In this document: one piece after another, positions 2 through 62,977 of the stretch
Layout of the letters: each line of letters begins with the position of its first letter
Position numbering within the stretch: position 1 is the stretch's first letter
NCBI GenBank assembly: GCA_951406725.2
Contig: OX597838.1
Coordinates: forward strand, 23,374,001-23,438,000
Direction of reading: 5' to 3'
Length of the DNA stretch: 64,000 nucleotides
From: Octopus vulgaris
Lineage: Eukaryota
Made by a program: the position numbers and the translations under genes
Notes under the pieces: model-generated
What the model was told of the DNA's origin: nothing
Databases searched by the model: none
The model's input: only the letters and a program-made list of their open reading frames with translations

Positions 2-2980
2 AGGAGGAGGAGGAGAATTAAAAAGAAGAGAAGCATGATCCCGAGTGTTTTACTGTCCCAAGTCAAACCTCCACCCAATCTCTATGGTGGATGTATTGAT
101 AATATGTTTGTTTATCTGATAGACAACAGTCATGTGTTTGCTATAAATGAGCATAACTTGGTGGAGAGAGATCATGTGGCAAACGATCAGCTTAACATGC
201 ACATTGACTTGGTAGATGTATTTTCTAGAAACATTTGTGTTAGTGAAATGTTTTCTTCAACGGTACATGTAGAGGATCTGACAGTTTCTGATAAACCTCA
301 TTATTTGGCCTATCCTCAACGTTCCCAAGGCATAGAAAAGCTAATATACAAGAATTTGGTTATTACTGAAAATAACTTGATTGCAATATTGGACGACAGT
401 GAGGCAAACATTAAGATATTAACATTTGACGGTCATCTTGTTGACTCTGTCAAAACGAATGTCGTCCCTAGATATGTGTGTCGCTGGCGATCAAACACAC
501 TGGTTATTACAACTAACAGCTCCCAGTTGCTGACATTAAAAGTGAACTTTCCATTGATGGTGACAACTTACCGGATGAAAAACGTATATAGATGTATTGC
601 TTCCTTCTCCGATAATCTATTGGTGTGTAATAGAAGTGATGATAAAAATACTTTGTTTGTCATTGACATTGATGAAATGCATTCAACTGTGAAGATAATG
701 AAAAAAATAAAAATCAATAAAATAGTGAGACACATGAACTATGACATAAACAATATTGCAGTTACGGTTAATGATGACATCATTGTCAACATTGGTGCTC
801 ATGTCGTATTCGTCAACCGTAATGGTGAATGTCTCTCTTCACTTAATCACTATTTTAATATTGATTATCAAGGCATGGGGATTGGTGACACTTATCTGTA
901 CCTTCGTGGGTTTTGCGATATATATGGTTATGATACACATGGTTATATTGCCTGTTTGTCACAGACTGGCGAATACAAAAAAGTATTTTCAAAGATGAGG
1001 GATTTTAAAGAAGATTTATATATTGGAAAATTAAATTGTAATGGTCCAAGATTTGTTGGATTTAACACTTTTCGCAGCACGAATAATTTGTATGTTGAAG
1101 GCTTGCTTAACCTCAGTCGCGAAAGATTCACTGTTACTCGTTTACAAACAGACAACTGTCCTGTTCAAGTAAAAGATATTGATATCTCTGCCAACGGACG
1201 GACAGTTGTGTGTGAAAAAGCTAACAGTGGCAATGTTAAAATATTTGATATATATAGGGAGTTTCTATGTCACAGAGATCTTCGAACTTTAGTTGGTGGT
1301 GTATGTTTTACAGAAGAAAACAATATAATGGTTACAGTCCCTAACAGACAAGAAATATTTCAACTAAGTCAACGAAATTTGGTGTTACGTAAAGTCTGGC
1401 AAAGTCCTGCACCTTTCGGTGCAATATGGAAAAAAGTGGAGAACATTTACTGTTGTGTGCATATTAATTTGACTGAATATTATAGCATAAAGATTGATGG
1501 AGACCAACTGAAGGTTCTGGATTGTGTGTCATTATCAATGCTTGATTCTGGTCTTCATTTCCCTTCCATTACATCTCAAGCGAACAAGGAAATATTCAGT
1601 AATGAATTAATTAATAAGTTGAAATACAGTGAAGGAGGAGAACGAAAACTTAAATCAGGGGAAATAGTTTGTAAAGGTAGATTGAAGGCGAGAAATGGTA
1701 ATTATATGGCAGAGAGTGTGCTGGGGACTGATCAAATAACTGTGCGGAGAATGCCATATAGAACAGCAATGTTTTCTGCTTCCATTCCTCCTTGTGATAA
1801 ACCAGTTGATTTCAATGACATCCGGAAATTAATTATGTTAGATGCTAATGTTGCTGTGTTCTTGCAAATAGATACTGTCATAGTAATTACCACAACAGGT
1901 GATGTACTTCAACATAAACAACTACAACGAAAGCCATCACCAAAAGACATATGTCGGTGGACTGATGAACAGTTCATAGTCACGTCTGGTAAACAACTGA
2001 CATTCTTCAACAGAAATCTCTCCCTTTTAAAAACCATCAACACCGAAAAATATTACAATAGAATTTATAAAAAGAATGACAATCAACTTGTGTGTGCATC
2101 TAGTTGTGCTGTATATAGAGCTGACATCCGGTTTTCATATGTAGATATAGTTGGCATTTATGGTGACACCTGTAAACACATTCGTCGAGTGTGTTGTGGG
2201 CAATATATAATCACAGCAATTGGTGTCACATCTCGTGAAGACATTGTTGTTATCAAAAAAATTTATGACTATACTGTCCTTTTCTACAGAGAACATTTGG
2301 TCAGGAGTTTAAAAGTTATGATAGAAGTAGAACCTGATCTAACTATACATGGTGAAAATGTTTATGTAACAGATTCAGTGAACGATATTCACCAAGTATC
2401 TGTGGATAGCATACAAGAAACATTTAAAGATGAGGATGAAGATCAAATATCTGCAGAGAGTGAAGATCAAATGTCTGCAGAGAATGAAGATCAAATATCT
2501 GTAGAAAGTGAAGATCAAATATCTGTAGAAAGGGAAGATCAAATATCTGAAGAGAGTGAAGATCAAACATCTGAAGAGAGTGAAGATCAAACATCTGAAG
2601 AGAGTGAAGATCAAACATCTGAAGAGAGTGAAGATCAAACATCTGAAGAGAGTGAAGATCAAACATCTGAAGAGAGTGAAGATCAAATATCTGTAGAAAG
2701 GGAAGATCAAATATCTGAAGAGAGTGAAGATCAAATGTCTGAAGAGAGTGAAGATCAAATATCTGAAGAAAGGGAAGATCAAATATCTGAAGAGAGTGAA
2801 GATCAAATATCTGAAGAGAATGAAGATGCAATACCTAACGATAGACCACATTTATTCCTCAGTGGGGATGATGTTGAAGCCATCAATGTTATTGGGCTTG
2901 CTGTTTTTGAAAATTCTGTTGTAATTTTTGGACCAGTTCATGGAAACCAGTCTTATTGTTTTTTTCATTATGAAAGATAA
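2..2980 (+). CDS. Large terminal coding exon of an NHL/beta-propeller-like repeat protein (possibly the C-terminal region of a TRIM-like protein); 5'-incomplete
   Basis: 981-aa ORF from ATG 35; the frame is also open to the window edge (RRRRRIKKKRS). Beta-strand-rich blade-like segments (e.g. DIDISANGRTVVCEKANSGNVKIFDI, GVCFTEENNIMVT) and an internal duplication (PRYVCRWRSNTLVITT vs PKDICRWTDEQFIVTS). Family assignment is by eye only. Confidence 0.7.
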   Translation, partial: RRRRRIKKKRSMIPSVLLSQVKPPPNLYGGCIDNMFVYLIDNSHVFAINEHNLVERDHVANDQLNMHIDLVDVFSRNICVSEMFSSTVHVEDLTVSDKPHYLAYPQRSQGIEKLIYKNLVITENNLIAILDDSEANIKILTFDGHLVDSVKTNVVPRYVCRWRSNTLVITTNSSQLLTLKVNFPLMVTTYRMKNVYRCIASFSDNLLVCNRSDDKNTLFVIDIDEMHSTVKIMKKIKINKIVRHMNYDINNIAVTVNDDIIVNIGAHVVFVNRNGECLSSLNHYFNIDYQGMGIGDTYLYLRGFCDIYGYDTHGYIACLSQTGEYKKVFSKMRDFKEDLYIGKLNCNGPRFVGFNTFRSTNNLYVEGLLNLSRERFTVTRLQTDNCPVQVKDIDISANGRTVVCEKANSGNVKIFDIYREFLCHRDLRTLVGGVCFTEENNIMVTVPNRQEIFQLSQRNLVLRKVWQSPAPFGAIWKKVENIYCCVHINLTEYYSIKIDGDQLKVLDCVSLSMLDSGLHFPSITSQANKEIFSNELINKLKYSEGGERKLKSGEIVCKGRLKARNGNYMAESVLGTDQITVRRMPYRTAMFSASIPPCDKPVDFNDIRKLIMLDANVAVFLQIDTVIVITTTGDVLQHKQLQRKPSPKDICRWTDEQFIVTSGKQLTFFNRNLSLLKTINTEKYYNRIYKKNDNQLVCASSCAVYRADIRFSYVDIVGIYGDTCKHIRRVCCGQYIITAIGVTSREDIVVIKKIYDYTVLFYREHLVRSLKVMIEVEPDLTIHGENVYVTDSVNDIHQVSVDSIQETFKDEDEDQISAESEDQMSAENEDQISVESEDQISVEREDQISEESEDQTSEESEDQTSEESEDQTSEESEDQTSEESEDQTSEESEDQISVEREDQISEESEDQMSEESEDQISEEREDQISEESEDQISEENEDAIPNDRPHLFLSGDDVEAINVIGLAVFENSVVIFGPVHGNQSYCFFHYER
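2438..2821 (+). repeat. Coding minisatellite, 16 x 24 bp (EDQ[ITM]S[EAV]E[SRN])
   Basis: Unit GAAGATCAAATATCTGAAGAGAGT and variants, in frame within the large ORF. Confidence 0.97.
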
Positions 2981-8259: not shown

Positions 8260-8815
8260 CTTTTCTATTGCAGGCACAAGGCCTGAAATTTTGGGGAGGG
8301 AGCCAGTCGATTAGATCGACCCCAGTGCGTAACTGGTACTTAATTTATTGACCCCGAAAGGATGAAGGGCAAAGTCGACTTCAGCGGAATTTGAACTCAG
8401 AACGTAACGGCAGACGAAATGCTGTTAAGCATTTCGCCCAGCGTGCTAATGTTTCTTATTTCTTTATTGCCCACGGGGGGCTAAGCACAGAGAGGACAAA
8501 CACGAACAGACAAAGAGATTAAGTCGATTACATCGATCCCAGTGCGTAACTGGTACTTATTTAATCGACCCCGAAAGGATGAAGGGCAAAGTCGACCTCG
8601 GCGGAATTTGAACTCAGAACATAAAGACAGACGAAATACCTATTTCTTTACTGCCCACAAGGGGCTAAACACAGAGAGGACAAACAAGTACAGACTAACG
8701 GATTAAGTCGATTATATCGACCAAGTGCGTAACGATGAAAGGCAAAGTCGACCTCAGCGGAATTTGCACTCAGAACGTAACGGTGTGCTAACGTTTCTGC
8801 CAGCTCGCCACCTTC
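8260..8815 (-). mobile_element. Nested array of three family-B SINE units
   Basis: Repeated core gcctttcatcctttcggggtcgata...taccagttacgcactggg; Tx1-like tails join SINE head sequence at 8456/8457 and 8640/8641. Confidence 0.85.
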
Positions 8816-9055
8816 GCAGGTAATATCTATTGCGGCGAGGTGGCAGAAACGTTAGCACGCTGGGCGAAATACGTAGCCGTATTTCGTCTGCCGCACATGT
8901 GTTCATGGTAAGAATTGCTGTTTCTTGGTGTTAATATTGTTAATAACTGTTGTTTCTTGTTAAACTGTTGAATAACTTAACTGTTGGAGTTTTCAATTGA
9001 AAACACTTAGTGCTTGTGGTAGCACGCGTTGTTCATTTCCCCTTTGGGGGGAAGA

Positions 9056-10584
9056 ATGTCGTCTAGCATGGAGCCTACCGTTGGAGCAGAAATACTTGTT
9101 TCTCCTGTTGAGAGGAGGAAATACATGTCTGGCGAGGAGCCAACTACAGACAAGGAAATAGGGGTTTCCCCCGCTACAAGAAGGAATAGCAGAGAGGATA
9201 ATATATTTGATATTTTTGGAGATGTGTCTGAGAGCTCGTCAGAACTTTCACCAGAAGAGTTTCCGACTTTGCCAGAGAACAAAGGCATTGTGTCGAAGAG
9301 AATAATTGATGTGCCTAGCATCCAGATAGAACCAAAAAATGGAAAAAAAAGTTTTGCGTTGGCTGCTGGGGGTGGAACCCAGATACTGTCGACGAATAAA
9401 AGCGAAATTATGAAATACAGCAAAATGATGGAAATAACTGACAACGGTGTGAAAATTGAACCTCCGCAAAAGTTATTACAGGAAGAAAAGCAAAAAACAA
9501 TAATTTTCAAAACATATTGTCTACAAAAAAGAAAAATTGAAAGAATGTCAGAAGAGAAAATAGAAAAGTGCTTAAAGCCAATATTGGGCGACGTAGTATT
9601 TCTGAGAAGAGGAAAAAAATTCGGAACGGTGGAAGTAAGGTTCACCAATAAAGAAATAGCACACAAGAACTCAGTTGAAACGTTGAAAACGAACGACGTG
9701 GAGTTAATCCCCTATTATATGGGGATGAGGACGTCGCGAATAAAAATTACAAGGGTCCCGCCAGAGGTCGAACCTATGTGGTTGTTGGCGGCAGTCCTAA
9801 TCAAAGAGGTAGAAAAAATTACTCTCCTCCAGGCTACCGCTACGGAAAACCCACGCTGGGATGGTCAAACAATTAATCTTCTCATTCAAGCGGACCCTAA
9901 AATAATTCAAACAATTCCTGAGACAATTGAGGTAGGGGAGGAGAACCTCGTGGTGTTTGTTGAGGGCCGAAAACCTTGATGTTTTTTATGTGGTCAATTA
10001 GGCCACATTCGAAGGAACTGCAAGGAAAATGAAGAAGAGGAGGAAGAGGAGAAAAAGACAAAGAGGAAGAAGATAAAGAAGAAACAGATGAGAAAAAAAC
10101 AACAAACAAAAGAAAAATACAACCAGCAACCCAGCCGAGAGCGGCGACTACTACAGAACAACGACCAAAAAAGACTGCCAGAAGAGAAAAAGAAGAAAAA
10201 GGCATAATAGCCGTATACACTAAAGATACTGAGCTCATGAGAGACATTCAACTCATAAAGACTGTAAAAAAAATTGATAACCTTTCAGAGGAATTTATCA
10301 ATTACGACATATATGAAGTCTCAAATAAGACTTATAGAATTCTACAAAATAAGTACAGAAAGACTGTATCTTCATTGAGATTAGATTTTAACAAGTCGAT
10401 ATTTCATGGATTACCAGCTCCGATCCCGCGAGAAAAGGAAAAGGTGGAGATTCCCCCTCCACCTGATAATTCTGTGTCGGTGGTGAGACGGGATTTTGAC
10501 AAATCTATTTCCCAAGACCGTCCACCTCCGACCCTGGATCAAAAAAAGGTGGAGGGTCCCCCTCCACCGGACAATCCTAATTAA
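9056..10584 (+). pseudogene. Tx1 ORF1 (gag-like, CCHC zinc knuckle), interrupted
   Basis: VFVEGRKP*CFLCGQLGHIRRNC: TGA at 9977-9979 (probably from CGA) immediately precedes CX2CX4HX4C; a frameshift in the Lys/Glu-rich tract leads into the 10237-10584 segment. Confidence 0.8.
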
Positions 10585-10595
10585 ACAGGTAAGTG

Positions 10596-13500
10596 ATGGC
10601 TATTCACATTGGTTGTTTAAATGTTCATGGCCTGTTGTCAAGCTGGAAGCAAGGACGCTTTCTGAATGACATCAGGTCAAGAAATTTGGATGTAATTGTT
10701 GCAACGGAAACCCGGGTGAAGGGGCCAAGAGATCTGCTCCCCCTCCTGAACGGCTACGAGAAATACGTTTCTCCGAGTCGGGCAGGAGGTGGGGGTGGGG
10801 TGTTGGTCCTACTAAAAAGAAACCGGGTAGCCGAGAAAAAGTTGACATTCAGTTGTGGCAAGACAATCAGGCTGGTCGCTATTTACGCACCAAACATTAT
10901 TGGCCCGCAAACTGAATATTTTCGTGGCCTAGGAAAGTTCCTAGCCACGTCGCATTCACTAGTAGTGTTAGGAGACTCTAATACAATATGTGCAGCACAC
11001 ACAGATTGTGTTGGCTCAAACTCGAACATGAACAGAAAATGTAACCCAGGCTTTCGGGATCTGCTAAGTCAATTTCAGCTAGCAGATCCATATAGGTTGG
11101 AGCACCCGAACACTCCACAGTGGACGTGGTCAAATAGTGACGGGTCTACCAGAACATATCTAGATAGGATTTTAATTAGAGAAAAAGATAAGTCCATAGT
11201 TGAGTGTCCACAGTTTTTTCTAGTCAGCTACAGTGACCACAAGATGGTTACCTGTAAACTGACGGTAGATAAGTTGCATAGACAGGGATCTGGCTACTGG
11301 AAACTCAATACGTCCCTTTTGGCGATTGAGGAGTACAGAAAGCGGATCAAGATGTTAATACAGAGGGCATTAACAGGTACCATCATTAATAACAAATGGT
11401 GGTACGCCCTAAAAAGAGCCATCAAATATGAGTCTATTAGGTTTAGCATAAGTTTAGCTAAGAAGGGACGTAAAATAGGAGATGGTCTAGTTAAGGAACT
11501 AGAAGAAGCCTGGAGGACTGGTAATACAGACCAAGCGAGGGTGAAAAGACTGGAGTTAAACCAACATCTTGAAGCCCACCACATGGGAAGTATTACCAGA
11601 ACTAAGTTACGTGCAATGGGAAGTGAAGGAATCAAAGCCGCTGGATGGGCCCGAGTGGTGGAAGCTCGGCAAGGAAATAGTTCCTCTATTCGGTCTTTGA
11701 CGAATCAAAATGGTGTCTTGGTAAACGAACCCGAGAAAATGTGTGAGGTCTTTCGGGAGTACTTCGCCCAGCTGTTCGGGGGTGACGGCGGTCCTGGTGG
11801 TGGGAGAGCCCTCGAGGACTTTCTTACCGGGCTGCCGTGCCTCTCGGGGTCGGATGCGGAGTCTTGCGAAGAGCCAATCACACCTGAGGAGGTGATGGAG
11901 GCTTTGGCCGATTGTAAAGCGGGTAAGTCGCCGGGACTTGATGGTCTTACGTACGAGCTATATAAATGTATGCCAGACTTGTTCGGGCAACTACTGACTG
12001 ACGTGTACGCGAACTGGAAACAGAATGGGTTTATTCCCAGATCTGTGCGCCGGGGAGTAGTGACGTTGGTCAGAAAGGACCCGAATAAGGGGGACGTTCT
12101 AGAGAATTTCAGGCCCATCACTCTGTTAAACGCAGAAGTGAAGATTTTGGCCAAGGTTCTAGCAAAAAGGTTGGCGCGTGTCGCGAATGGTATAGTCGGA
12201 GAGGCACAGACATGTGCCATCCCAGGCAGAACCATTCAGGATACCCTCCATCTTATTCGCTATACCATAGAGAGGGTTGGTAATAAATCTGGCAAAGGTG
12301 GGGCATTGGTGCATTTGGACCAGTCTAAAGCTTTTGATAGGGTTGACCATCGATACCTAGCGACTGTACTTGCGCGGTTTGGCCTGGGTCTTGGCTTCCT
12401 CAGGTGGTTTATCGCTTTGTACCACAACATTGACTCGATAGTTCGGGTGAACGGTTTCCTCTCGAAGCCGTTCTGCATCAGACGCTCGGTTCGTCAAGGA
12501 TGTCCGCTTTCACCACTTTTGTATGTGATGGCTCTCGAGCCATTACTGCAAAGGTTGAGTGGCATCCCGAGAGAACCAGGACTAGAGGAGTTTGTTGCGG
12601 CTTTCGCGGATGATATCACTATCAGTGTAACCACAGTAGCACGCCCACGTGAAGTAGGTAAGACTATTGAGGCTTACGAGGAGGTAGCAAGAGCATAGAT
12701 TAACCGGGAAAAGTCGGTCGGCTTGCAGCTCGGCACCTGGGTTAGCAAGTCGATGCCTGCGCTGGACGGAGGGACCGGTTAAGTTGCTGGGAGTCTGGTT
12801 TGGACCAGGCCTCCAGATAGAGAAGAACTGGACGGAGGTATTGAGCAGGGTGGCTGCAGTAGTCAAGACCTGGTCTTGGCGGTGGCTATCCCTGAAAGGG
12901 AGGGCGGATGTGGCCAATGTGTTTATCGCATCGGTCATTACCTACCGCCTGACCGACGTGCCCTGTCCGGATTCGTGGTTGATCAGGTTGGAGAGACAGC
13001 TCTTTCGCTTTTTGTGGAAGGGCAGGTCGCCACTTGTGAAACGCTCTGTCTGCTGTCAAAAGCCTTTAAAGGGAGGTTTAGAGATGCCTTGGTTAATGAT
13101 GCGCAGACATGCGTTGAGGTTGAGGCACCTCTGGATTCTCCTGGATAGTGAACAGGTGTGGTCTCCGCTAGCCAGACAAATGTTCCCTGAGTTCAAGAGT
13201 TTTGCGAACAGGAAGCCTGGTGATCTCGTAGACCGAGGTCGAGTGAGTGGCATAAAGAGTGCCGTAAGCCCCTCTTGCTGTTCCGGCGCTCAGGCAACGC
13301 CAGCGGTGGGGGTTCCACACGGATTTTATATAGTGGGTTGGTAGAGTCTGAATGTGACGATGGCCTGGGGTCGACTCTAGGTCTCGGATTTATTCAACTG
13401 GACAGCTTGTTTAATCGTACATTCGGGTTGAGAACGTTGGACAACTTCCAAAAGTCCTTAACCTGGCAATGCTACAGAGGTGCCTTGCCCGTTTGGGATA

Positions 13501-13936
13501 AGCTCGCAAGACATGGTAAACGTCAGTCGCCGACCTGTCCAAGATGCGGGGGTACAGGGAAACCGTCCCTCACGCTATTGTTCAGTGTCCGGAGACAACT
13601 GAAATGTTGGCTTATGCTGAACATCTGTTGTCCGGCGAAGGAAGAGTACGGCTGTCGACTGAGTCAATTATAAAAATTGACCCACCGGGAGTTCTAACGA
13701 ACGATGGTAAGAATTGTTTTCTCACGGTTGTAGCAATAGCAAAAGAGGCAGTATGGAAGACTGGGATAAAAGGAATTAAGACAGGCAACTTTATCTCTGG
13801 TGACAATTTACGATCCTTTTTTTCTTTTCATTTGAAAAGGAAACTGTGGCTGGAGAAGAGGTGTCTGTCAGAGTGTACGTTCCAAAAGAGATGGAAGTAT
13901 GTTGCACGAGTGTTGTGCGTGCAAGGAACCGTGTGA
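10596..13936 (+). pseudogene. Tx1 ORF2 (apurinic-like endonuclease + reverse transcriptase + CCHC)
   Basis: GCLNVHGL, ATETR, VLGDSN, YLDRIL, YSDHK, GYWKLNTSLL, KSPGLDG, NFRPITLLN, LDQSKAFDRVDH, VRQGCPLSP, FADD (12603); stop at 12696-12698 and later frameshifts; CPRC..ETVPHAIVQCP. Confidence 0.92.
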
Positions 13937-14181
13937 AATGACGAGGGGGAAAAAAAAGGAAAAATAAAAAGGTATCAGCGGTAGATCGGGACTTGTGGGA
14001 TCGGAGCGTAACTTGATCATCGCTTCATTTGTATTGTTTTTGTACTGTGTATTCCATTCGATTTTTATGTATTGTATTTTATTTTTGAAGTCACATTTAT
14101 GTAAAATCATATCGATTCACTGATCCCATCAGTTGTACTGTCCATATCTATGTTTGGCCCCCGGTGGGCAATAAAGAAATT

Positions 14182-14734
14182 CGTATTTCGTCTGCCGTTA
14201 CGTTGTGAGTCCAAATTCCACCGAGGTCCACTTTGCCTTTCATCCTTTCGGGGTCGATAAATTAAGTACCAGTTACGCACTGGGGTCGATGTAATCAACT
14301 TAATACCTATGTCTGTCCTTGTTTGTCTCCTCTATGTTTAGCCCCTTGTGGGTAATAAAGAAATACGTATTTCGTCTGCCATTATGTTCTGAGTTCAAAT
14401 TACGCCGAGGTCGAATTTGCCTTTCATCCTTTCGGGGTCGATAAATTAAGTACCAGTTACGCACTGGGGTCGATCTAATCGACTTAATCCGTTTGTCTGT
14501 CCTTGTTTGTCCCCTCTATATTTGACCCCTTGTGGGTAATAAAGAAATATGTATTTCGTCTGCCATTATGTTCTGAGTTCAAATTCCGCCGAGGTCGACT
14601 TTGCCTTTCATCCTTTCGGGGGTCGATAAATTAAGTACCAGTTACGCACTGGGGTCGATGTAATCGACTTAATCCTTTTGTCTGTCCTTGTTTGTCCCCT
14701 CTATGTTTAGCCCCTTGTGGGCAATAAAGAAATA
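14182..14734 (+). repeat. Three tandem ~184-bp family-B SINE units, each beginning at the Tx1 target sequence
   Basis: Units 14182-14365, 14366-14549 and 14550-14734 each start (C/T)GTATTTCGTCTGCC and end GTGGG(T/C)AATAAAGAAATA. Confidence 0.93.
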
Positions 14735-14832
14735 AATATCTATTACGGCCATGCAGAACGAAGAGATGAAAAAAAAAAAAAATCCGTGCCAGGGGCAGCT
14801 ACTCTGCATTTACTCATTTCATCGTTCACATC

Positions 14833-20302: not shown

Positions 20303-22079
20303 GTATGCATACAGTCTTAATTATCCTTTTCTACTCTGGGCACAAGGCCCAAAATTTTGGGGGAGGGTGTTAGTCGATTAGATCGATCCCGGTATGCAAC
20401 TGGTACTTAATTTATCAACCCTGAAAGGATGAAAGGCAAAGTCAACCTTGGCCGAATTTGAACTCAGAACGTAAAGACAGACGAAATACTGCTAAGCATT
20501 TCACCTGGCATGCTAACGTTTCTTATTTCTTTATTGCCCACAGGGACTAAACACCCGGTGTGCTAACGTTTCTGCCAGCTTGCCACCTTATACAGTCTTA
20601 ATTATGTCTGTCTAAACTTTACTATGTATATTTGTGGTTTTACCATCTCTTTTTCTCTATACCTTCTGCTTCCACTAAAGGTAGGTTAGGACAGTCTGCT
20701 TTTGTGAAAGCTGTTGTGTATGCAATAATGGCCAATTCATTTCCTTAATGATAGGTGCCTGTATGACTGTGTGGTTAAGAGGCTTGCTTCTCTACTATGT
20801 GGTCCTCAGTTCAATCTCATTGCACAGCCCCTTGGACAAGTGTCTTCTTATATAACATGGCCCTCTGTTGATTATGATGACAAGGGTTCCAGTTGATCTG
20901 ATTGACAGAACAGCTTGCTTGTGAACTTAACGTGCAAGTGGCTGAGCACTCCTCAGACATGTGTACCCTTAACGTAGTCCTCGGGGAGATTCAGGGTGAC
21001 ACAGAGTGTAACAAGGCCGGCCCCTTTGAAATACAGGTACAAGAGAAACAGGAAGAAAGAATGAGAGAAAACTGTGGTGAAAGAACTCAGCAGGATTTAC
21101 CACCACCTCCTGCTGGAGCCTCGTGGAGCTTTAGATGTTTTCGCTCAATACTCACAATGCTTGGTCTGGGAATTGAAACTGCGATCCTACAACTACAAGT
21201 TCACTGCCCTAACCACTAGGCCATTGCGTCTCCACATCTTCTTATGTAGCTCTAAGCTGATTGAAGTCTTGTGAGTGGAAATTGAAAGATACCTGACCTG
21301 TGTGTGTGTGTGTTTAAAGTCCTTGTGACTTGGCAGTTCAACAAAAGAGACTGATAGAATAAGTACGAGGCTTAAAAAAGATAGCTATATATATGTATGT
21401 GTTTGTGTGTGTGTGTACATATATATATGTATACATACATACATATATATGTGTATGTATATACCATATTTAAATGTGTATAAGAAACCCTTTTTTGTCA
21501 AAAGTTAGGTTAAAAATGGCTACAATAGCCTGTGTTCATTTTGAAGTTGCTAACTGCATATTGTCCCATACAGTCCACTCAGCTGGCAAAAATGAACAGG
21601 AACTGTATTGCAAACAGGGCCATTGCTAAGCTCCTCAACCCCAGCAGTCACAGGGGGCTTCTGTAGTTGAGGGGGGCACCATGTTATGATGAAAGTATGT
21701 TGATGAGTCATCTATTTACTTTGGTTAAGAATTAAAACTATCCATGTTAACTGAAAATTTCAAGAAGTAAAATGGGAATACATTGTACTTGCAAAAGTTC
21801 TTGTAAATGTATTACATTGTACCACGAACGTGTACCAGACTTTGTGAATTGTCAATGATGTCTATCGAACACGAACTTAGCTCTTAGCTTGAATATTCTG
21901 AACTGATCGATGATTTTGCAAAGCAAAAAGTGCCCCGTGTTTGTCTTTGAAAGTTCCCTGGATTATAAATGTGCTCTTTTGTTCATATCTGGAAGTTTGT
22001 AATAGACCTAAATAAATTTAACTTGTTGTACTTTTAAAGCTGTTCTTTGGGATAACGTGAAGTATTGGGATAACGTGAA

Positions 22080-22487
22080 GGCGCACGAGTGGCTGTGTGG
22101 TAAGTAGCTTGCTAACCAACCACATGGTTCCGGGTTCAGTCCCACCTGCGCGGCATCTTGGGCAAGTGTCTTCTGCTATAGCCCCGGGCCGACCAGTGCC
22201 TTGTGAGTGGATTTGGTAGACAGAAACTGAAAGAAGCCTGTCGTATATATGTATATATATATATATATATGTGTGTGTATGTGTTTGTGTGTCTGTGTTT
22301 GTCCCCCTAGCATTGCTTGACAACCGATGCTTGTGTGTTTACGTCCCCGTCACTTAGCGGTTCGGCAAAAGAGACCGATAGAATAAGTACTGGTCTTACA
22401 AAGAATAAGTCCCGGGGTCGATTTGCTCGACTAAAGGCGGTGCTCCAGCATGGCCGCAGTCAAATGACTGAAACAGGTAAAAGAGAG
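22080..22487 (+). mobile_element. tRNA-derived SINE (family A, the most abundant here); other copies e.g. 23762-24330(-), 28657-29059, 29762-30165, 31400-31808(-), 41554-41941, 53786-54178(-), 60724-61145
   Basis: A-box-like TGGCTGTGTGG, GGTTCAGTCCC, conserved ccttgtgagtggatttggtagacggaaactgaaagaagcc, internal (TA)n/(TG)n tract, tail aaatgactgaaacaagtaaaagag. Confidence 0.88.
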
Positions 22488-28335: not shown

Positions 28336-30505
28336 TTAAGATATGAGAGAAGAGGATTGTTGCAGAGGAGCTACATGATAACTTACAAAACAAACTGATG
28401 GAAAATATTGCCCTTTCAATTGGAAAAAGATGACCTGTGCCACCTCAACCTTTGGGTGATTCTGTTATGTTTTCTGCTCGTTGCTCTTTCATTACCAACC
28501 CGGCTGAAACCAACTCTGGCTCTGAGTACAAATGTCTTGTTTTCAAAAGTCCTGAATTAAAATCTTCCACGAAACCTTTGTCACAATTTATGTTCCTAAC
28601 ACTAGCTTAATGATAACTAAGATATTTTACTAAATACTTTGTTATATAGGTGTATGAGTGGCTGTGTGGTAAGTAGCTTGCTTACGAACCACATGATTCC
28701 AGGTTCAGTCCCACTGCATGGCACCTTGGGCAAGTGTCTCCTACTGTAGCTTTGGGCCGACCAAAGCCTTGTGAGTGGATTTGGTAGACAGAAACTGAAA
28801 GAAGCCTATCACATATACATATATATATATATATATATGTGTGTGTATGTGTTTGTGTGTCTATGTTTGTCACCCCAACATTGCTTGACAACCGATGCTG
28901 GTGTGTTTACGTCCCTGTAACTTAGCTGTTCGGCAAAAGAGAACGACAGAATAAGTACTGGGCTTGCAAAGAATATGTCCTGGGGTCGATTTGCTCGACT
29001 AAAGGCGGTGCTCCAGCATGGCCACAGTCAAATGACTGAAACAAGCAAAAGAGTAAAGAGTATATTTAAAGTAACTGAAAGAAACACAGAGCATCTCGAA
29101 ATGAATAAAGTAGCAAAAGGGTTAATCCAGCCCATTGTGATGACAGTCATTTCGTTTTGACATTGTAGTCATATTCCCGTGTGTTGTTAGCTGTTATGAC
29201 ACTTTACAGACTGGTGTCATTATCGCATGAACTATTAAACAATGCCTGAATCAACGGTTGTCACTCAGTATTCTGTTTGAACAACAGTCAGCAAATTTTG
29301 TGACAGTATCATCATCATCATCATCATCATCATTTAGCGTCCGCTTTCCATGCCTAGCATGGGTTGGACGGTTCAACTGGGGTCTGGGAAGCCAGAAGGC
29401 TGCACCAGGCCCAGTCTGATCTGGCAATGTTTCTACGGCTGGATGCCCTTCCTAACGCCAACCACTCCGTGAGTGTAGTGAGTGCTTTTTACGTGCCACT
29501 GGCACGGGTGCCAGGGCCACGATCACAAATGGTCAGGAGGCAATTTTCAAAGATCTCAATAAGCACTTTTACAATGTGATTTTAATCCATCATTTTGGAA
29601 CATCATCCAGATTTGGAATTGTTTTCAGTGGATATTCTGATAAACCTGCTAAAATATCAAAATCTGCTGAAATATAGAATAGAGACTGTCAGAATGATGT
29701 GGTCGCTTCTGATAAGAACCCAATAAAATTCGAAAATCGATTAAGGTTGTTCATCATTTTAGGTGTAGGAGTGGCTGTGTGGTAAGTAGCTTGCTTATGA
29801 ACTACATGGTTCCGGGTTCAGTCCTACTGTGTGGTACTTTGGGCAAGTGTGTTCTACTATAGCCTTGGGCCAACCAAAGCCTTGTGAGTGAATTTGGTAG
29901 ACAGAAACTGAAAGAAGCCCATCGTATGTATATATATATATATGTATGTGTGTGTGCATATGTTTGTGTGTCTGTGTTTGTTCCCCTAACAGTGCTTAAC
30001 AACTGATGCTGGTTTGTTTAGTTCTCGTAACTTAGCGGTTCGGCAAAATGACACCAATAGAATAAGTACGAGGCTTACAAAGAATAAGTCCTGGAGTTGA
30101 TGTGCTCGACTAAAGGTGGTGCTCCAGCATGGCCACAGTCAAATGACTGAAACAAGTAAAAGAGTATATAAGGCGCATGACTCAGTGGTTAAGGTGTTGC
30201 ACTCACGATTGCGAGATTGTGGGTTCGATTCCTAGACCGGGTGTAGCGTTGTGTTCTTGAGCAAAGCACTTCATTTCACATTGCTCTGCAGTCATTTCGT
30301 CATCTGACATGTGGCACCCATTGCACCTGGTGGCACATAAAGACACAAAGATGCCACTAAGCATTTTCAGGAAAACTTATTTTTTCAACGAATTTCAGTT
30401 ATCAGATGATTTATATTCTTAATAATTAAATATCAGTCGGGGTGGATGAGAAATATAGCCGGTGGTCAGAAGTAAGGTCCGAGAAAATAACATTCTTCCA
30501 CTGCT

Positions 30506-37410: not shown

Positions 37411-39589
37411 GTAAGTGGTATCTACTTTTGTTATTGTTTGGTGTTTCTTCGTTAATTTTCATAAACGAGATAGAACTACTTTCGGTTCTCTCCCACCCCT
37501 ATGTCTTGCATCGACAAATTCCTATAAAATTTCAATGTGCTCAATATTAACCGACGTCTGCTTCGGGTGGATCCCTCGGTATATCTTAAATAAAACCACT
37601 GCATACGTGCATATATATGTATATATATATATATAATACTTGCATGTGCGTGTGTATAGTTAAGGTTATTTTATTAATTTATCAACGCACTGATATTCAT
37701 AATTAATTCACAGACCGTCGAGGTGTGTTGGTGCTGGGCGTGTTACCTTATTTAATTATTTTCGTAAGCACGAAAAGAAAGAAATCCATACACGTTAATA
37801 TAGAACAGTTCTTAACCTTGGCACAAGGCCAAATGTCTGCGGTAAGCGTGTGTACACGATTGAATTGACTTCAAGGCTTTAATTATTTTTATTTTATTTT
37901 ATCGACCCCCAAAATGATAAAAGGCGAAGTAGATACCGGTCGAATTGGAACTCAGAATTGCTACTGAATGATAATAATAATACTTTCTCTTTTTGGCATA
38001 AGGCCTGGAATTTGATGGGAAGGGGTTAGTCGATTATATTGACTTTATAGTGCAACTGATACTTATTTTATCGACCCCGAAAGGAAGAAATGCAAAGTCA
38101 ACCACGGCGGAATTTAACCTTAGAACGTGAAGACGGACGAAATGCCGCTAAGCATTTATATCGGCGTGCTTAGCAATTTTGCCAGCTCGCCGCCTTAATA
38201 ATTAATGATTTCAAATTGTAGTACTGGGCCAGCAATTTCGGTGGAGGGTGCAAGTCGATTACATCGACTCAAGTACTCAACTGGTACTTATTTTATCGGC
38301 TTCGAAAGGATGAGAGGCAAAGTCGACCACGGCGGAATTTAAACTCAGAATGTGAAGACGGACCAAATACCTATTTCTTTACTACCCACAAGGGGCTAAA
38401 CACAGAGAGGACAAACAAGGACAGACAAACGGATTAAGTCGATTATATCGACACCAGTACGTAACTGGTACTTATTTAATCGACCCCGAAAGGATGAAAG
38501 GCAAAGTCGACCTCGGCAGAATTTGAACTCAGAACGTAGCGGCAGACGAAGTACCGCTAAGCATTCGCCCGTTTCTGCCAGCTCGCCACCTTAATAATGA
38601 TGATAATAACAATAATAATAATAATAATCCCCACTGCCACAGGCACAAGACCTGAAATATTGGGAGAGAGGTCTCGACTCCGAAAGTATGAAAGGTTAAG
38701 TTGACATTGCCAGGATCCGAATTCAGAGCAAAGCAGTTTTTTTTTTTCTGATGCCCTGTCGATGCCATTGATCTCAGCACTTGGCTGGTGTTTTATGCTA
38801 TTGACCCTGTAAGGATTAACGACAAAGTTAACCTCGGTTGGGATTACCGCTAAGCACTTTGTCCGCAGAACGATTGCACCAAAGTACCAACCCTTTTCTA
38901 AACGAAGACAAAATACTTTAAAATTGGTTGCTTAATCGATCGCAGGTATTTCACTGGGGTTAGTTAAATCAACACCAGTATTTGACTAGTACTTTATTTT
39001 ATCGATTTTGGAAGGGTGAATGACAAAATTGACGGCGCGATTTGAACTTTGAATATAAAGAACCTAGAAATACCCCTAAGCGGTTTTCCGACTCTAAACG
39101 ATTTTGCGAATGCATTACCCTAAGTAATAGTGGTTTCTAATTTATAAACACTGCTAGTAATTTTTAAGGGGCTGGCGCTAATCAATTAATTAATTCGATC
39201 TCAGTTCATGGCTGGTACTGTATTTAGCGGAGTTTTGCAATAGCTTTCGGAGAACCAAAAGCGTAAGGAATTGTGTGGATTTTCGTTCTTTCCATAATAT
39301 TTTTTTTAGTATTTCTGTATTTCATACAACGGGAGTCACGATTCTGAAAGAATCTTTTTCTCTAAATATTTCGATTTTTTTCTCTCTTTTCTCTTCACTG
39401 CTCCTCAATACCGCACTGTTTTCCTTCCACATGAGGTAGTGATAGCTATTCCAAAAACTCCGTAGAATTTGAATTCAAAACGTAATTGTCTGAATAAATA
39501 TTGCATGAGATTTTCGTCTGATGATCCAACTTCAACCAGGGCCCAAGTCGTTGGGGGGATAATTCAAAGACGAAATATAAAGGAAAGCT

Positions 39590-51991: not shown

Positions 51992-52226
51992 GATAAGGTG
52001 GTGAGCTGGCAGAACCGTTAGCACGCCGGGCGAAATGCGTAGCCGTATTTCGTCTACCGCTACGTTCTGAGTTCAAATATCGCCGAGTCGACTTTGCCTT
52101 TCATCCTTTCGGGGTCGATAAATTAAGTACCAGTTACCCACTGGGGTCGATATAATCGACTTAATCCGTTTGTATGTCCTTGTTTGTCCCCTCTGTGTTT
52201 AGCCCCTTGTGGGTAGTAAAGAAATA
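51992..52226 (+). mobile_element. Full-length family-B SINE with Tx1-like tail, inserted in the head of a family-A SINE
   Basis: A-box-like TGGCAGAACCG, B-box-like GAGTTCAAAT; 11-bp TSD GGTTCCAGATT (51981-51991, 52227-52237). Confidence 0.9.
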
Positions 52227-59536: not shown

Positions 59537-60881
59537 CTCTAGACTATGTTAGAAAACAAAAAAAAACCCACAGAAACTCTTCTAAGATACCATACAGTGG
59601 GATTGAATCAGAACTGTGTGATTGCAAAGCAAACTTTTTTAACCATGCAGCTACATCTTTTGGCCAATATTTGCTCTAGCCCTGATCTCTTGTTTTCCAG
59701 ATCAGTTATATATCCAGCTTGTATTGATATTGGTTAACAATTTTTCTTAATCAAACAATGCTTAGTGGACCTTGTCAACATTTTAACCGTTTAGTGTCCA
59801 TATTACTCAATCAAATGTAATGTTTATTTATTCACATTGTCTTCAATTAACCATGCATTGTTTCATAGCTTAGAGATTTCAATGATGTGATTGTATATTT
59901 TTAGAATGATATCATATGATAGGTTTCAGAAATCAGATCTAGCTAGTTTGGGTGTAAAGCAGAATAATTGAGCCAGATATGGCTGGTTTAAAGGCTAAAG
60001 GTTTAGGCAAGTTTAACAGCTGTATCAATGTTTCTTAACCTCAAGCCAGCTATGATTGCAGAGTAGGTTTGAGAGGTCAGATCTAACCAGTTTGTTCTAT
60101 GATGATGATGATCATCATCATCGTTTAACGTCCGCTTTCCATGTTAGCATGGGTAGGATGATTTGACTGAGGCCTGGTGAACCAGACTACTATCTGATCT
60201 GGCAGAGTTTCTACAGCTGGATGCCCTTCCTAACGCCAGCCACTCCAAGAGTGTAGTGGGTGCTTTTATGTACCACTGGCATGAGGGCCAGTTAGGTGAT
60301 ACTGGCAACGGCCACGCTCAAATGGTGCTTTTTATGTGCCACCTGCACAGTAGCCAGCCCAGCGGCACTGGCAACGATCTCGCTCGAATGTTTTTTTCAC
60401 GAGCCACCAGCACAAGTGCTGGTAAGGCGATGCAGGTAATGATCGTGCTCGAATGGTGTTTTTAACATGCCATCGGCACAAAGGCCAGGTTGTTGCTCTG
60501 GTAACGATCTCACTCGTATGGTACTCTTAGCACTCCACTAGCAACGGATGCCAGTCACCGAGTTTGATTTCGATTTTGCTTGCCTCAACAGGTCTTCGCA
60601 ATCCAGTTTGATTTTGATTTCACTTGCCTCAAAGTGATCTAAATTAAAACTTTCCATAAAAATTTCATGGCAATTTATGTTCTGAACACTTGCTTAATAA
60701 TGACAAAAGTTATTTTACTATATAGGTGCTGGAGTGGCTGTGTGGTAAGTAGCTTGCTTACCAACCACAGGGTTCAGGGTTCAGTCCCACTGCATTTCAC
60801 CTTGGGCAAGTGTCTTCTACTATAGCCTCGGGCCGACCAAAGCCTTGTGAATGGATTTAGTAGACGGAAACTGAAAGAAGC

Positions 60882-60934
<53 letters not shown>

Positions 60935-62066
60935 TTGTGTGTGTGTGTTTCTGTGTTTGACTCCCAACATCGCTTAACAACCGATGCTGGTGTGTTTACG
61001 TCCACGTAACTTAGCGGTTCGTCATAAAGAGACCGATAGAATAAGTACTAGGCTTACAAAGAATAAGTCCTGGGGTCGATTTGCTCGACTAAAAGGCGGC
61101 GCTCCAGCAAGGCCGCAGTCAAACGATTGAAACAAGTAAAAGAGTAAATTCATCATTTGAAAAAACCAAAAATATTTGAAACAAAGGCGGCGTTTTTCAG
61201 TAAAATTTATTGTGGAGCAAAAAAAAAAAAAATGGTTTAAACTAACCTAATTTCACTCTTTCGTGTCTTGGAAGAGTGTTTGTTAATTCTAGGTTCTTAA
61301 TCCCTTTCTGATCACCATGGTAATTCTAAATCCGCTTCGTTGAACCTGAATAATCTTGTGAAACCACTAGATTAGTAGGATCTGTATTTTCTGGTCTTGT
61401 CACAGTAATAAGCTTGGACATTTACAACGTATTTCAAACATATGTCGAGGTGGGGGGTGGAAACGATTTTGATCGTTGATGATGATATCCATAAGACCAT
61501 TGATCTTTTAATGTCTCATGCCTTTTTAGACACGCTAAAACTTATTGATTGCTTTTTTATGTGAATAGTCATCATCATCATCAGTATTTAAATGTCCATT
61601 TTTCCATGCTTACATAGGACAGATGGAATTGGTTGAGGTAGATTTTCTATAGCTGGATGCCCTTCCTCTGGCCAGTTCTCACTTCATGTCAAAACAAGAA
61701 GACACATACACACACACACACACACATGCTTCTTTCAGGTTCTGTCTACCAAATCCACTCACAAGACTTTTGTTGGCCTGGGGCTATAGTTGAAGACACT
61801 TTCCCCAAAGTGCCATATAGTAGGACTGAACCCAAAACCATGTGGTTGGCATGCGACCTTCTTAACCACACAACCATGGATGCACTTGTAGTATTTTTGA
61901 ATTCTCTAAAAAATATTGTTTCCCTTTCCATTAAATGTAGTCTTGTACATTTTCCTTCCTATTCATTTAACACTCCATTACCAAAAATACTGAAGACCAT
62001 GCTACACTGATGAGGTCAGAATAACACCAAAACATGTCCCAAAAAGATAAAAGCATGATATTAACC

Positions 62067-62166: not shown

Positions 62167-62385
62167 CTCACCTTCTTCTGTCTCCTCCCTCGCACCTTCT
62201 CCTGTCTCCTCCCTCGCACCTTCTCCTGTCTCCTCCCTCTCACCTTCTTCTGTCTCCTCCCTCGCACCTTCTCTTGTTTCCTCCCTCTCACCTTCTTCTG
62301 TCTCCTCCCTCGCACCTTCTCTTGTCTCCTCCCTCGCACCTTCTCTTGTTTCCTCCCTTGCACCTTCTCCTGTCTCCTCCCTCAT
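62167..62385. repeat. 24-bp pyrimidine-rich minisatellite abutting the gap
   Basis: About 9 units of CTCGCACCTTCTCCTGTCTCCTCC. Confidence 0.92.
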
Positions 62386-62977
62386 CTTTATGCTTCCTTC
62401 CCTTCTCTCTCTAAGATCCTATCTTTATTATAAATTAATGTATTTATTACTTGTTTCATGTAAATCAAATTGATGTATTGTGGTGGTCACCTATAAAGAT
62501 GCAGTTATGCTTATTTCAGTAGTACAGAACAACCATTTAATATTGATTTCAAACTTTGGCATAAAGCCAGCAATTTGACCCCAGTTTCAACTGGTCCTTA
62601 TTTTAACAACCCTAAAAGGATAAGTCGACCGTAGCAGACCTTGAACTCAGAATGTAAAGACAGATGAAATGCTGCTAAGGATTTCAACCTGTGTGGTAAC
62701 ACTTCTACCAGCTCACTGCCTTCAATGACCATTTAATATCAAATGATATTTAGGGCCAAAGTGGGGTGAGCTGGCAGAATTGTTAGCATGCCGGACGAAA
62801 TGCTTAGCGACATTCTGTCCCTCTTTATGCTTTCAGTTCATCAAGGTCAGCTTCGCCTTCTTTCATCCTTTTGGGGTCGATAAAATAAGTACCAGTTGAG
62901 CACTGGGGTTGATGTAACTGACTTAGGTCAACCACTGAACTTATTGACCTTGTGCCAAAATTTAAAAACAGTATTAA

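What the first reader, a model, noticed from the sequence alone, without database searches (positions are those of the whole stretch)
8822..14749. A Tx1 LINE that appears to target a SINE, and a SINE subfamily that carries both the LINE's tail and its target site
Seen in sequence: the full-length Tx1 element sits in the tRNA-derived head of a family-B SINE with TSD CGTATTTCGTCTGCCG. Its last ~35 nt (TCTATGTTTGGCCCCCGGTGGGCAATAAAGAAAT) match the tail of a family-B SINE subfamily (TCTATGTTTAGCCCCTTGTGGGCAATAAAGAAAT). Tails of that subfamily join the same GTATTTCGTC site at 14365/6, 14549/50, 8640/1(-) and 38371/2(-, one mismatch). The whole composite is bounded by an outer duplication AATATCTATT(G/A)CGGC (8822-8836, 14735-14749). 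Established: Tx1-clade endonucleases are often sequence-specific for multicopy targets (U2 snRNA, tRNA arrays, microsatellites, other transposons), and SINEs borrow 3' ends from partner LINEs. Inference: the SINE is both passenger and landing pad, so mobilising it multiplies safe target sites for the LINE. I do not know of this being described in cephalopods but cannot search.
Basis: partly seen in the sequence, partly recalled or inferred. Interest (0 to 1): 0.9.

Follow-up and report, generated by a model that had tools for sequence, protein, structure and literature searches.

The report
Retrotransposon that nests in its parasite
A long jumping gene sits almost only at one exact base inside a short repeat, and a very abundant form of that short repeat has a related tail and is stacked at the same base, so the short repeat is likely both a passenger of the long element's enzyme and its landing site, a loop not found in the papers searched.

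Summary
Confirmed, and it holds genome-wide. An L1/Tx1-group LINE sits at one base of a SINE head in 56 of 57 young copies and 27-28 of 39 older ones. 10 of 14 truncated young copies join a SINE head, and hosts are unrelated SINE copies (91% pairwise), so these are separate insertions. The SINE's Tx1-type tail occurs 140,158 times; 33,223 (24%) run straight into the same site, against 4% or less expected and 0 of 115 for other-tailed SINEs. Corrections: the 16-nt 'TSD' is mostly not a true duplication (9 of 40 pairs identical; the 5' copy likely comes from the element's RNA); the SINE tail is closest to a sister Tx1 family; some junctions are local duplications; most SINE copies land at a loose motif; 'safe' and 'mutual benefit' are untested. 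The junction base changed from G in old to C in young LINE copies. Closest precedent: crocodilian Tx1-Mar/SINEU, which target a DNA transposon. Eight paper searches found no SINE-targeting Tx1; Repbase and Dfam could not be searched. This scan noted a similar case in another genome (e1-7591025, unchecked).

The parts
8822..8836 (+). Left copy of the outer duplication made when the bottom SINE of the stack inserted; its last 3 bases overlap the SINE head start
8834..8893 (+). SINE head: A-box-like motif 8841-8851, hairpin 8863-8888 with loop TAGC 8874-8877
   Evidence: hairpin predicted on this and another copy; closing pair is U-G, U-A or G-C in 72 of 78 heads
8878..8893 (+). 5' copy of the target sequence; in the family it likely comes from the LINE RNA's own 5' end rather than from the host
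8894..14181 (+). Full-length L1/Tx1-group LINE, young subfamily, no poly(A) tail
9056..10584 (+). ORF1, broken by a stop at 9977-9979 and a frameshift; a CCHC zinc-knuckle motif follows the stop (read from the sequence; no Pfam hit for the two pieces scanned, which left the knuckle out)
10596..13936 (+). ORF2 (APE endonuclease, RT, C-terminal Cys/His motif), broken by a stop at 12696-12698 and frameshifts; intact 1133-aa version in L142 (P0001)
14147..14181 (+). LINE 3' tail, conserved across several Tx1 families of this genome and shared with the SINE
14182..14366 (+). SINE unit 1 (site, B-box-like motif, body, Tx1-type tail): the host that the LINE split
14367..14550 (+). SINE unit 2, headless 184-nt array unit
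14551..14734 (+). SINE unit 3, bottom of the stack
14735..14749 (+). Right copy of the outer duplication; begins AATAT, close to the loose K-R-T-A-T motif of dispersed insertions
8300..8815 (-). Neighbouring stack of the same SINE with a site-1 junction (tail at 8642) and a site-2 junction (tail at 8458)
20372..20584 (-). SINE carrying a 30-nt tail-only insert at site 2 with about 20 nt duplicated
38252..38587 (-). Tx1-tailed SINE unit joined at site 1 to a SINE with another tail
52000..52226 (+). Free full-length Tx1-tailed SINE at a dispersed site with its own duplication

Best explanation
This is a low-copy L1/Tx1-group LINE lineage whose copies sit at one base of a SINE head, and its enzyme likely also mobilises the Tx1-tailed subfamily of that SINE, which would explain why SINE copies are stacked at the same base. 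Shown: the site, the orientation, the independence of the hosts, the shared tail, the enrichment. Inferred mechanism: the APE endonuclease nicks the bottom strand at the 3' edge of the head's hairpin loop; it has a loose core preference (K-R-T-A-T, seen at dispersed sites) and a strong preference for the full SINE context. RT primes on the conserved 3' tail. Both LINE and SINE RNAs begin with head sequence, so the cDNA likely pairs with the upstream half of the host head and joins precisely, replacing that part of the head; this gives head-(unit)n stacks and a fixed pseudo-TSD. LINE RNA in cis goes to the SINE site almost always; SINE RNA in trans goes there in roughly a quarter to under half of cases and elsewhere otherwise, and each dispersed copy is a new site. 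The SINE took its tail from this group of Tx1 families, most likely from a sister family, and is probably served by more than one (site 2 fits the sister's AGAA motif). Stacks also grow by local duplication.
For: 56 of 57 young 3' ends found with a LINE-only probe are at the site; 30 of 30 full-length 5' ends follow a head; 10 of 14 truncated young copies join a head at variable points; hosts 91.4% pairwise, like random SINEs (90.7-91.9%), while LINE 5' regions differ 1.7% from the column majority; hosts include other-tailed SINEs. SINE tail to site 33,223 of 140,158 against 13 of 308 GGTAT sites in 200 kb of random DNA and 0 of 115 other-tailed SINEs. Off-target LINE copies start with GGTAT (3) or CGTAAT (1), matching the motif of dispersed SINE insertions. 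5' and 3' site copies identical in 9 of 40 pairs, 18 with T on the 5' side and C on the 3' side; 9 of 10 C-class-headed stacks have a G junction.
Against: The SINE tail ends in A (95 of 100) like a sister family (20 of 30) and unlike this lineage (0 of 66), and is closer to it (81% against 76%), so the mobilising enzyme is not pinned down. 11 of 47 adjacent units are 96% or more identical against 0 of 400 unrelated pairs, so junction counts overstate independent events. The 5' T/C variant is not clustered on a poorly resolved tree of LINE 5' ends (13 changes, 12.7 shuffled). About ten older copies have non-head 5' neighbours that I could not resolve within 2.2 kb. None of 22 full-length copies fetched whole has both ORFs open. 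No biochemistry.
Confidence: 0.8

Rival explanations
1. Head, LINE and SINE body form one composite element that moves as a unit to random sites; the SINE is not a target.
For: Most full-length copies are bounded by an outer duplication beyond the SINE tail; the 28 nt of head next to the LINE are very uniform.
Against: Host bodies are as diverged as random SINEs, carry different tails and unit numbers; truncated copies keep a head instead of joining unique DNA with an outer duplication; no outer duplication was found for nine older SINE-hosted copies with non-head 5' neighbours.
Confidence: 0.03
2. The LINE does target the SINE, but the SINE stacks come from tandem duplication, unequal crossing-over or retroposition of ready-made multimers, not from targeted SINE insertion.
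For: Adjacent units are more alike than unrelated ones (92.5% against 90.1%; 11 of 47 at 96% or more); units lack a run of four T, so multimer transcripts are possible; tandem SINEs in a bivalve are discussed in terms of unequal recombination (PMC11481361, passages).
Against: Many Tx1-tailed units are joined at the site to SINEs with at least three other tail types, which duplication cannot make; other-tailed SINEs never show the junction (0 of 115); most adjacent pairs lie within the unrelated range; the unit boundary is the exact LINE insertion base.
Confidence: 0.1
3. The SINE is mobilised mainly by another Tx1 family (the tail donor or one not sampled) that shares the site; the LINE in the window is only a co-tenant.
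For: Tail similarity and terminal base favour the sister family; about 100 copies of this lineage is few for 140,000 SINEs; 96 of the first 100 SINE junctions listed have G where the young LINE has C.
Against: The sister families sampled do not use site 1 (0 of 20; 0 of 29); older subfamilies of this lineage have the G junction and GGTAT off-targets, matching the SINE's spectrum.
Confidence: 0.2
4. Specificity comes mainly from RNA-DNA pairing: transcripts read through the tail into the host SINE, and this 3' extension anneals at the nick, so a loosely specific nuclease primes productively only at SINE sites.
For: The endonuclease hairpin loop is almost the same in a sister family with other targets (role of this loop from PMC1950540, passages); co-transcription with the target is cited as strengthening targeting (PMC4494074); each family carries its own target at its 5' end.
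Against: At dispersed SINE sites the motif is already in the 5' copy of the duplication; changes towards AGGTAT in the 3' copy were 9 against 3, p = 0.15, inconclusive.
Confidence: 0.25

Closest known systems
Tx1-Mar LINEs and SINEU of crocodilians (Kojima 2015, PMC4494074; parts 2-4 of 5 read)
   Same: Tx1 LINEs and a SINE share a target inside another repeat; SINE targeting is looser (13-90%); tandem SINE insertions; some LINEs carry a SINE-like head; truncated copies used to exclude hitchhiking.
   Different: There the target is a third element (Mariner-N4) and no LINE sharing the SINEU-1 3' end was found; here the target is the SINE family itself, the tail is shared, and the scale is at least 33,000 junctions.
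Tx1L of Xenopus in Tx1D (as described in PMC1950540, passages)
   Same: APE-endonuclease LINE with a specific site inside another transposon.
   Different: Target is a DNA transposon that the LINE does not mobilise; specificity shown biochemically there, not here.
Keno, Kibi, Koshi (named in PMC4494074) and Dewa (recalled, not read)
   Same: Tx1-clade elements with multicopy targets (U2 genes, microsatellites, tRNA arrays).
   Different: Targets are host genes or simple repeats; none of 40 tRNA genes sampled here holds the site.
R2 elements in 28S rDNA (co-transcription cited in PMC4494074; homology-driven 5' joining recalled)
   Same: Target sequence on the element's RNA 5' end and precise 5' junctions.
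   Different: R2 uses a restriction-like endonuclease and a ribozyme; this ORF2 is L1-like and Rfam found no ribozyme at its 5' end.
Tail-swapping SINE superfamilies (MetaSINEs, PMC4824008; bivalve HCD SINEs, PMC11481361; passages)
   Same: One head and body with different LINE-derived tails; tandem SINE structures.
   Different: The word Tx1 does not occur in either main text, and no site-specific self-insertion was seen in the passages read.

Membership tests
L1/Tx1 group of non-LTR retrotransposons | ORF2 with N-terminal APE endonuclease followed by RT | tested here: met
   PF03372 and PF00078
L1/Tx1 group of non-LTR retrotransposons | ORF2 closer to L1 than to other clades | tested here: met
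   human L1 ORF2p E 1.9e-64 over residues 5-867, R2 E 1.6e-20; solved structures hold few other clades, so the test is coarse
Tx1 clade proper | RT groups with named Tx1 elements (Tx1L, Keno, Dewa) in a tree | not testable with these tools
   no named Tx1 sequence was available; homologues are unnamed; the tree only relates local families and unnamed hits
Tx1 clade proper | Sequence-specific insertion in a multicopy target | tested here: met
   56 of 57 young and 27-28 of 39 older copies
Tx1 clade proper | Specificity resides in the endonuclease | not testable with these tools
   needs a nicking assay
Tx1 clade proper | True target-site duplication | tested here: inconclusive
   clean duplications at off-target sites; at the SINE site the two copies differ in 31 of 40 pairs
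tRNA-derived SINE | Head homologous to a tRNA | tested here: inconclusive
   A- and B-box-like motifs by eye; ARAGORN 0, no Rfam tRNA match, best of 40 genomic tRNAs (7 isotypes only) aligned out of register
tRNA-derived SINE | Short, non-coding, dispersed, flanked by duplications | tested here: met
   about 240 nt; 23 and 30 duplication pairs
tRNA-derived SINE | 3' end shared with a LINE | tested here: met
   76-81% identity over the last 40 nt to four Tx1 groups
tRNA-derived SINE | Pol III transcription | not testable with these tools
   no stranded small-RNA data laid
Deu/Nin-domain SINE superfamily | Central domain homologous to the Deu/Nin consensus | tested here: inconclusive
   resemblance recalled only; text and supplement searches for the motif found nothing relevant

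The most novel reading that the evidence does not exclude
A closed loop in which a LINE lives almost only inside the SINE that parasitises it, and has tracked that SINE's evolution: when heads with a G-C instead of a U-G pair closing the hairpin loop spread (15,538 perfect copies) and removed the G at the nick, the LINE switched its junction base from G to C and moved from other-tailed to Tx1-tailed hosts (9:11 to 44:4). With sister enzymes about 70% identical that use unrelated sites, this is a natural series for how a retrotransposon endonuclease retargets, and a self-stacking SINE on a scale of tens of thousands of junctions.
Probability: 0.3. Interest if true: 0.85.

Novelty: new variant of a known kind. 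Interest (0 to 1): 0.7.

Why it matters
Target-specific LINEs are known to hide in RNA genes, microsatellites and DNA transposons. Here the hiding place is a SINE that carries a Tx1-type tail and likely rides the same enzyme, so parasite and habitat are the same sequence. It explains a large class of tandem SINE stacks (at least 33,223 exact junctions) as targeted insertion and warns that automatic repeat libraries will split or fuse these families. The set of close Tx1 families with different targets, and the G-to-C junction change within one lineage, make the question of what sets APE endonuclease specificity (protein or RNA pairing) directly testable.

Tried and rejected
Composite mobilisation: rejected. 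Classical TSD at the SINE site: mostly rejected. Idea that this LINE is the unique tail donor: rejected. Idea that L135's upstream family is a site-2 specialist: rejected, only 2 of 29 at site 2. RNA templating of the first junction bases: inconclusive. Linkage of head class to body variants: none found, so host class cannot be read from the body. tRNA identity of the head and a 5' ribozyme: nothing found; the miRNA-family matches lie below their cut-offs and reflect two inverted SINE heads. Tail stem-loop: weak, z 0.5 and -1.3. A real tRNA gene as target: none of 40. Sequencing runs: no RNA holder listed. The first SINE classification mis-typed tails and one tally mixed in LINE tails; both were redone and not used. 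The tree is the quick version. The Tx1L endonuclease paper was not held.
Full report
Observation. The composite reads: outer repeat, SINE head, 16-nt site, 5.3-kb LINE, tail, site, three 184-nt SINE units each ending in a similar tail, outer repeat. ORF2 has APE and RT domains. An intact ORF2 from another copy (P0001) matches human L1 ORF2p at E 1.9e-64 and R2 at 1.6e-20. The window copy is broken in both ORFs.

The LINE is site-specific. A DNA search with the 3' end gave 40 scored places of 795 candidates; all 30 loci cut run into the SINE site, but that query ended at the junction. A 24-mer upstream of the tail, found only in the LINE, has 59 matches; 57 distinct 3' ends were recovered and 56 are at the site by eye, one is off-target with an 11-nt duplication starting CGTAAT. 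All 30 full-length 5' ends examined follow a SINE head. Of 14 truncated-looking young copies, 10 join a head at variable points, 1 is the off-target and 3 have other neighbours. A degenerate probe found 93 3' ends; of 39 older ones fetched, 27 are at the site, 1 doubtful, 3 in the SINE-like 5' end of another Tx1, 3 off-target at GGTAT, and 5, all of one subfamily, have unrelated flanks.

The hosts are independent. The 44 Tx1-tailed hosts are 91.4% identical pairwise, as are random copies (90.7-91.9%); LINE 5' regions differ 1.7% from the column majority, hosts 5.5%. Hosts include SINEs with other tails. Young copies use 44 Tx1-tailed and 4 other-tailed hosts (11 untyped), older ones 9 and 11 (p = 8e-5). 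Against this, about ten older copies have non-head 5' neighbours that 2.2 kb did not resolve; none of nine SINE-hosted ones tested showed an outer duplication there. Contigs of one other sample bridge both junctions (run X7, 8847-9129 and 13950-14224); that run is only guessed to be RNA and shows no transcription.

The inner repeat is mostly not a host duplication. In 40 copies with both ends, the two 15-mers are identical in 9; 18 have T on the 5' side where the 3' side has C, a non-CpG position. The 28 nt next to the LINE are nearly uniform while the distal head varies like hosts. I infer that the LINE RNA begins with head sequence and joins by homology. The variant does not cluster on the LINE tree (13 changes, 12.7 shuffled; 1 of 33 branches well supported), which weakens this. 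SINE stacks show the same pattern: 9 of 10 stacks with a C-class head have a G junction.

The SINE. Its tail has 140,158 exact matches; 33,223 run into site 1 and 2,126 into a second head site. The first 30 tails on C1 gave 15 site 1 by script (13 by eye) and 2 site 2; 13 tails in 200 kb of random DNA gave 5 site 1 (a sixth script hit is false), 1 site 2, 7 other; 6 tails beside tRNA genes gave no site 1. In the same 200 kb only 13 of 308 GGTAT and 13 of 9,265 K-R-T-A-T words are site 1 (the latter is inflated by TA repeats). None of 115 other-tailed units is followed by site 1. Dispersed insertions start with K-R-T-A-T already present in the 5' duplication copy (23 pairs; 30 pairs with a stricter seed; C at +1 in 0 and 2). 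Junction counts overstate events: 11 of 47 adjacent units are at least 96% identical against 0 of 400 unrelated pairs.

Who donated the tail, who moves the SINE. The tail is common to several Tx1 families. One (72% amino-acid identity, many intact, often tandem) inserts at an unrelated fixed site in 14 of 20 loci and never at site 1. Another (about 60-70%) has loose AGAA/AGTA flanks, 2 of 29 at site 2, none at site 1. The SINE's last 40 nt are closest to the latter (81% against 76%) and end in A like it. So the tail donor is likely a sister, while the insertion spectrum (site 1, GGTAT) matches the older subfamilies of the window's lineage. Mobilisation by more than one family is the simplest reading; it is inferred.

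A shift at the nick. The site lies at the 3' edge of a four-base loop on a 10-12-bp hairpin; the closing pair is U-G, U-A or G-C in 72 of 78 heads. Older LINE junctions have G at +1, young ones C in 50 of 53; SINE junctions have G in 96 of the first 100 listed. Perfect C-class heads number 15,538, G/A-class 19,993. Off-targets repeat each subfamily's base (3 G, 1 C), which suggests a real change of preference; an RNA-derived base is not excluded, and the C-class may be plain structural drift.

What is not shown. That sites are safe or limiting: perfect sites outnumber LINE copies several hundredfold, and other-tailed SINEs offered sites before. Current activity: none of 22 full-length copies fetched whole has both ORFs open. 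tRNA origin and Tx1-clade placement by tree were not established.

Literature. Eight searches found no Tx1 that targets a SINE. Closest is PMC4494074 (parts 2-4 of 5 read). PMC13282606 (part 1 of 3, passages, one supplement search) counts L1-Tx1 and SINE families in an octopus and does not contain the word target. Seen as passages only: PMC4758252, PMC3747384, PMC11481361 (plus a supplement search), PMC1950540, PMC4824008, PMC3531059; PMC8869645 had no hit for the terms. Subscription papers (Kojima and Fujiwara 2004; Ohshima and Okada 1994), figure-only supplements, Repbase and Dfam were not seen and could hold the target note. This scan's notes list a similar SINE-site LINE in another genome, unchecked; nothing by sequence or for this genome.

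Verdict. Real, genome-wide, a new variant of target-specific Tx1 biology in which the target is the partner SINE. Interest 0.7.

Noticed in passing
L191-L209; G000 C22:14.18-14.24 Mb, C27:32.96-32.99 Mb, C30:10.44-10.45 Mb: A sister Tx1 group with many identical intact ORF2 copies inserts at a fixed site that resembles the ORF1 of an old Tx1, carries that site at its own 5' end and forms head-to-tail arrays of about 5.26 kb period.
   Followed up: partly
L323, L325, L345, L349, L352: A close subfamily of the focal lineage shows no target preference (5 of 5 unrelated flanks): a gain or loss of specificity within one lineage.
   Followed up: partly
L333, L336, L337: Older copies inserted into the SINE-like 5' end of yet another Tx1 family.
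   Followed up: partly
window 29498-29818 region (minus strand units), L214, L072: Other-tailed members of the same SINE often lie in or end with (TTA)n repeats and have at least three tail types, suggesting other partner LINEs such as a microsatellite-targeting one.
   Followed up: no
P0001 endonuclease; window 10970-10985: The conserved GDFN motif reads GDSN in 24 of 26 scored focal-lineage hits and GDFN in all 19 scored sister-family hits.
   Followed up: partly
window 8774-8867: The composite inserted just upstream of an oppositely oriented SINE head, making a long inverted repeat that scores as miRNA-like hairpins below cut-off.
   Followed up: yes
L143 downstream of the LINE: A short tandem of head fragments (about 79-nt unit, three copies) built from the SINE 5' part.
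   Followed up: no
window 22067-22445, 28635-29068, 60711-61159 and others: A second abundant SINE family of about 400 nt with an internal (AT/GT)n tract, ten or more copies in the window.
   Followed up: no
window 2357-2908 and 62167-62431: Two 24-nt minisatellites, the second next to an assembly gap.
   Followed up: no
L086: A roughly 280-nt palindromic element inserted inside a SINE tail with a short duplication, MITE-like.
   Followed up: no
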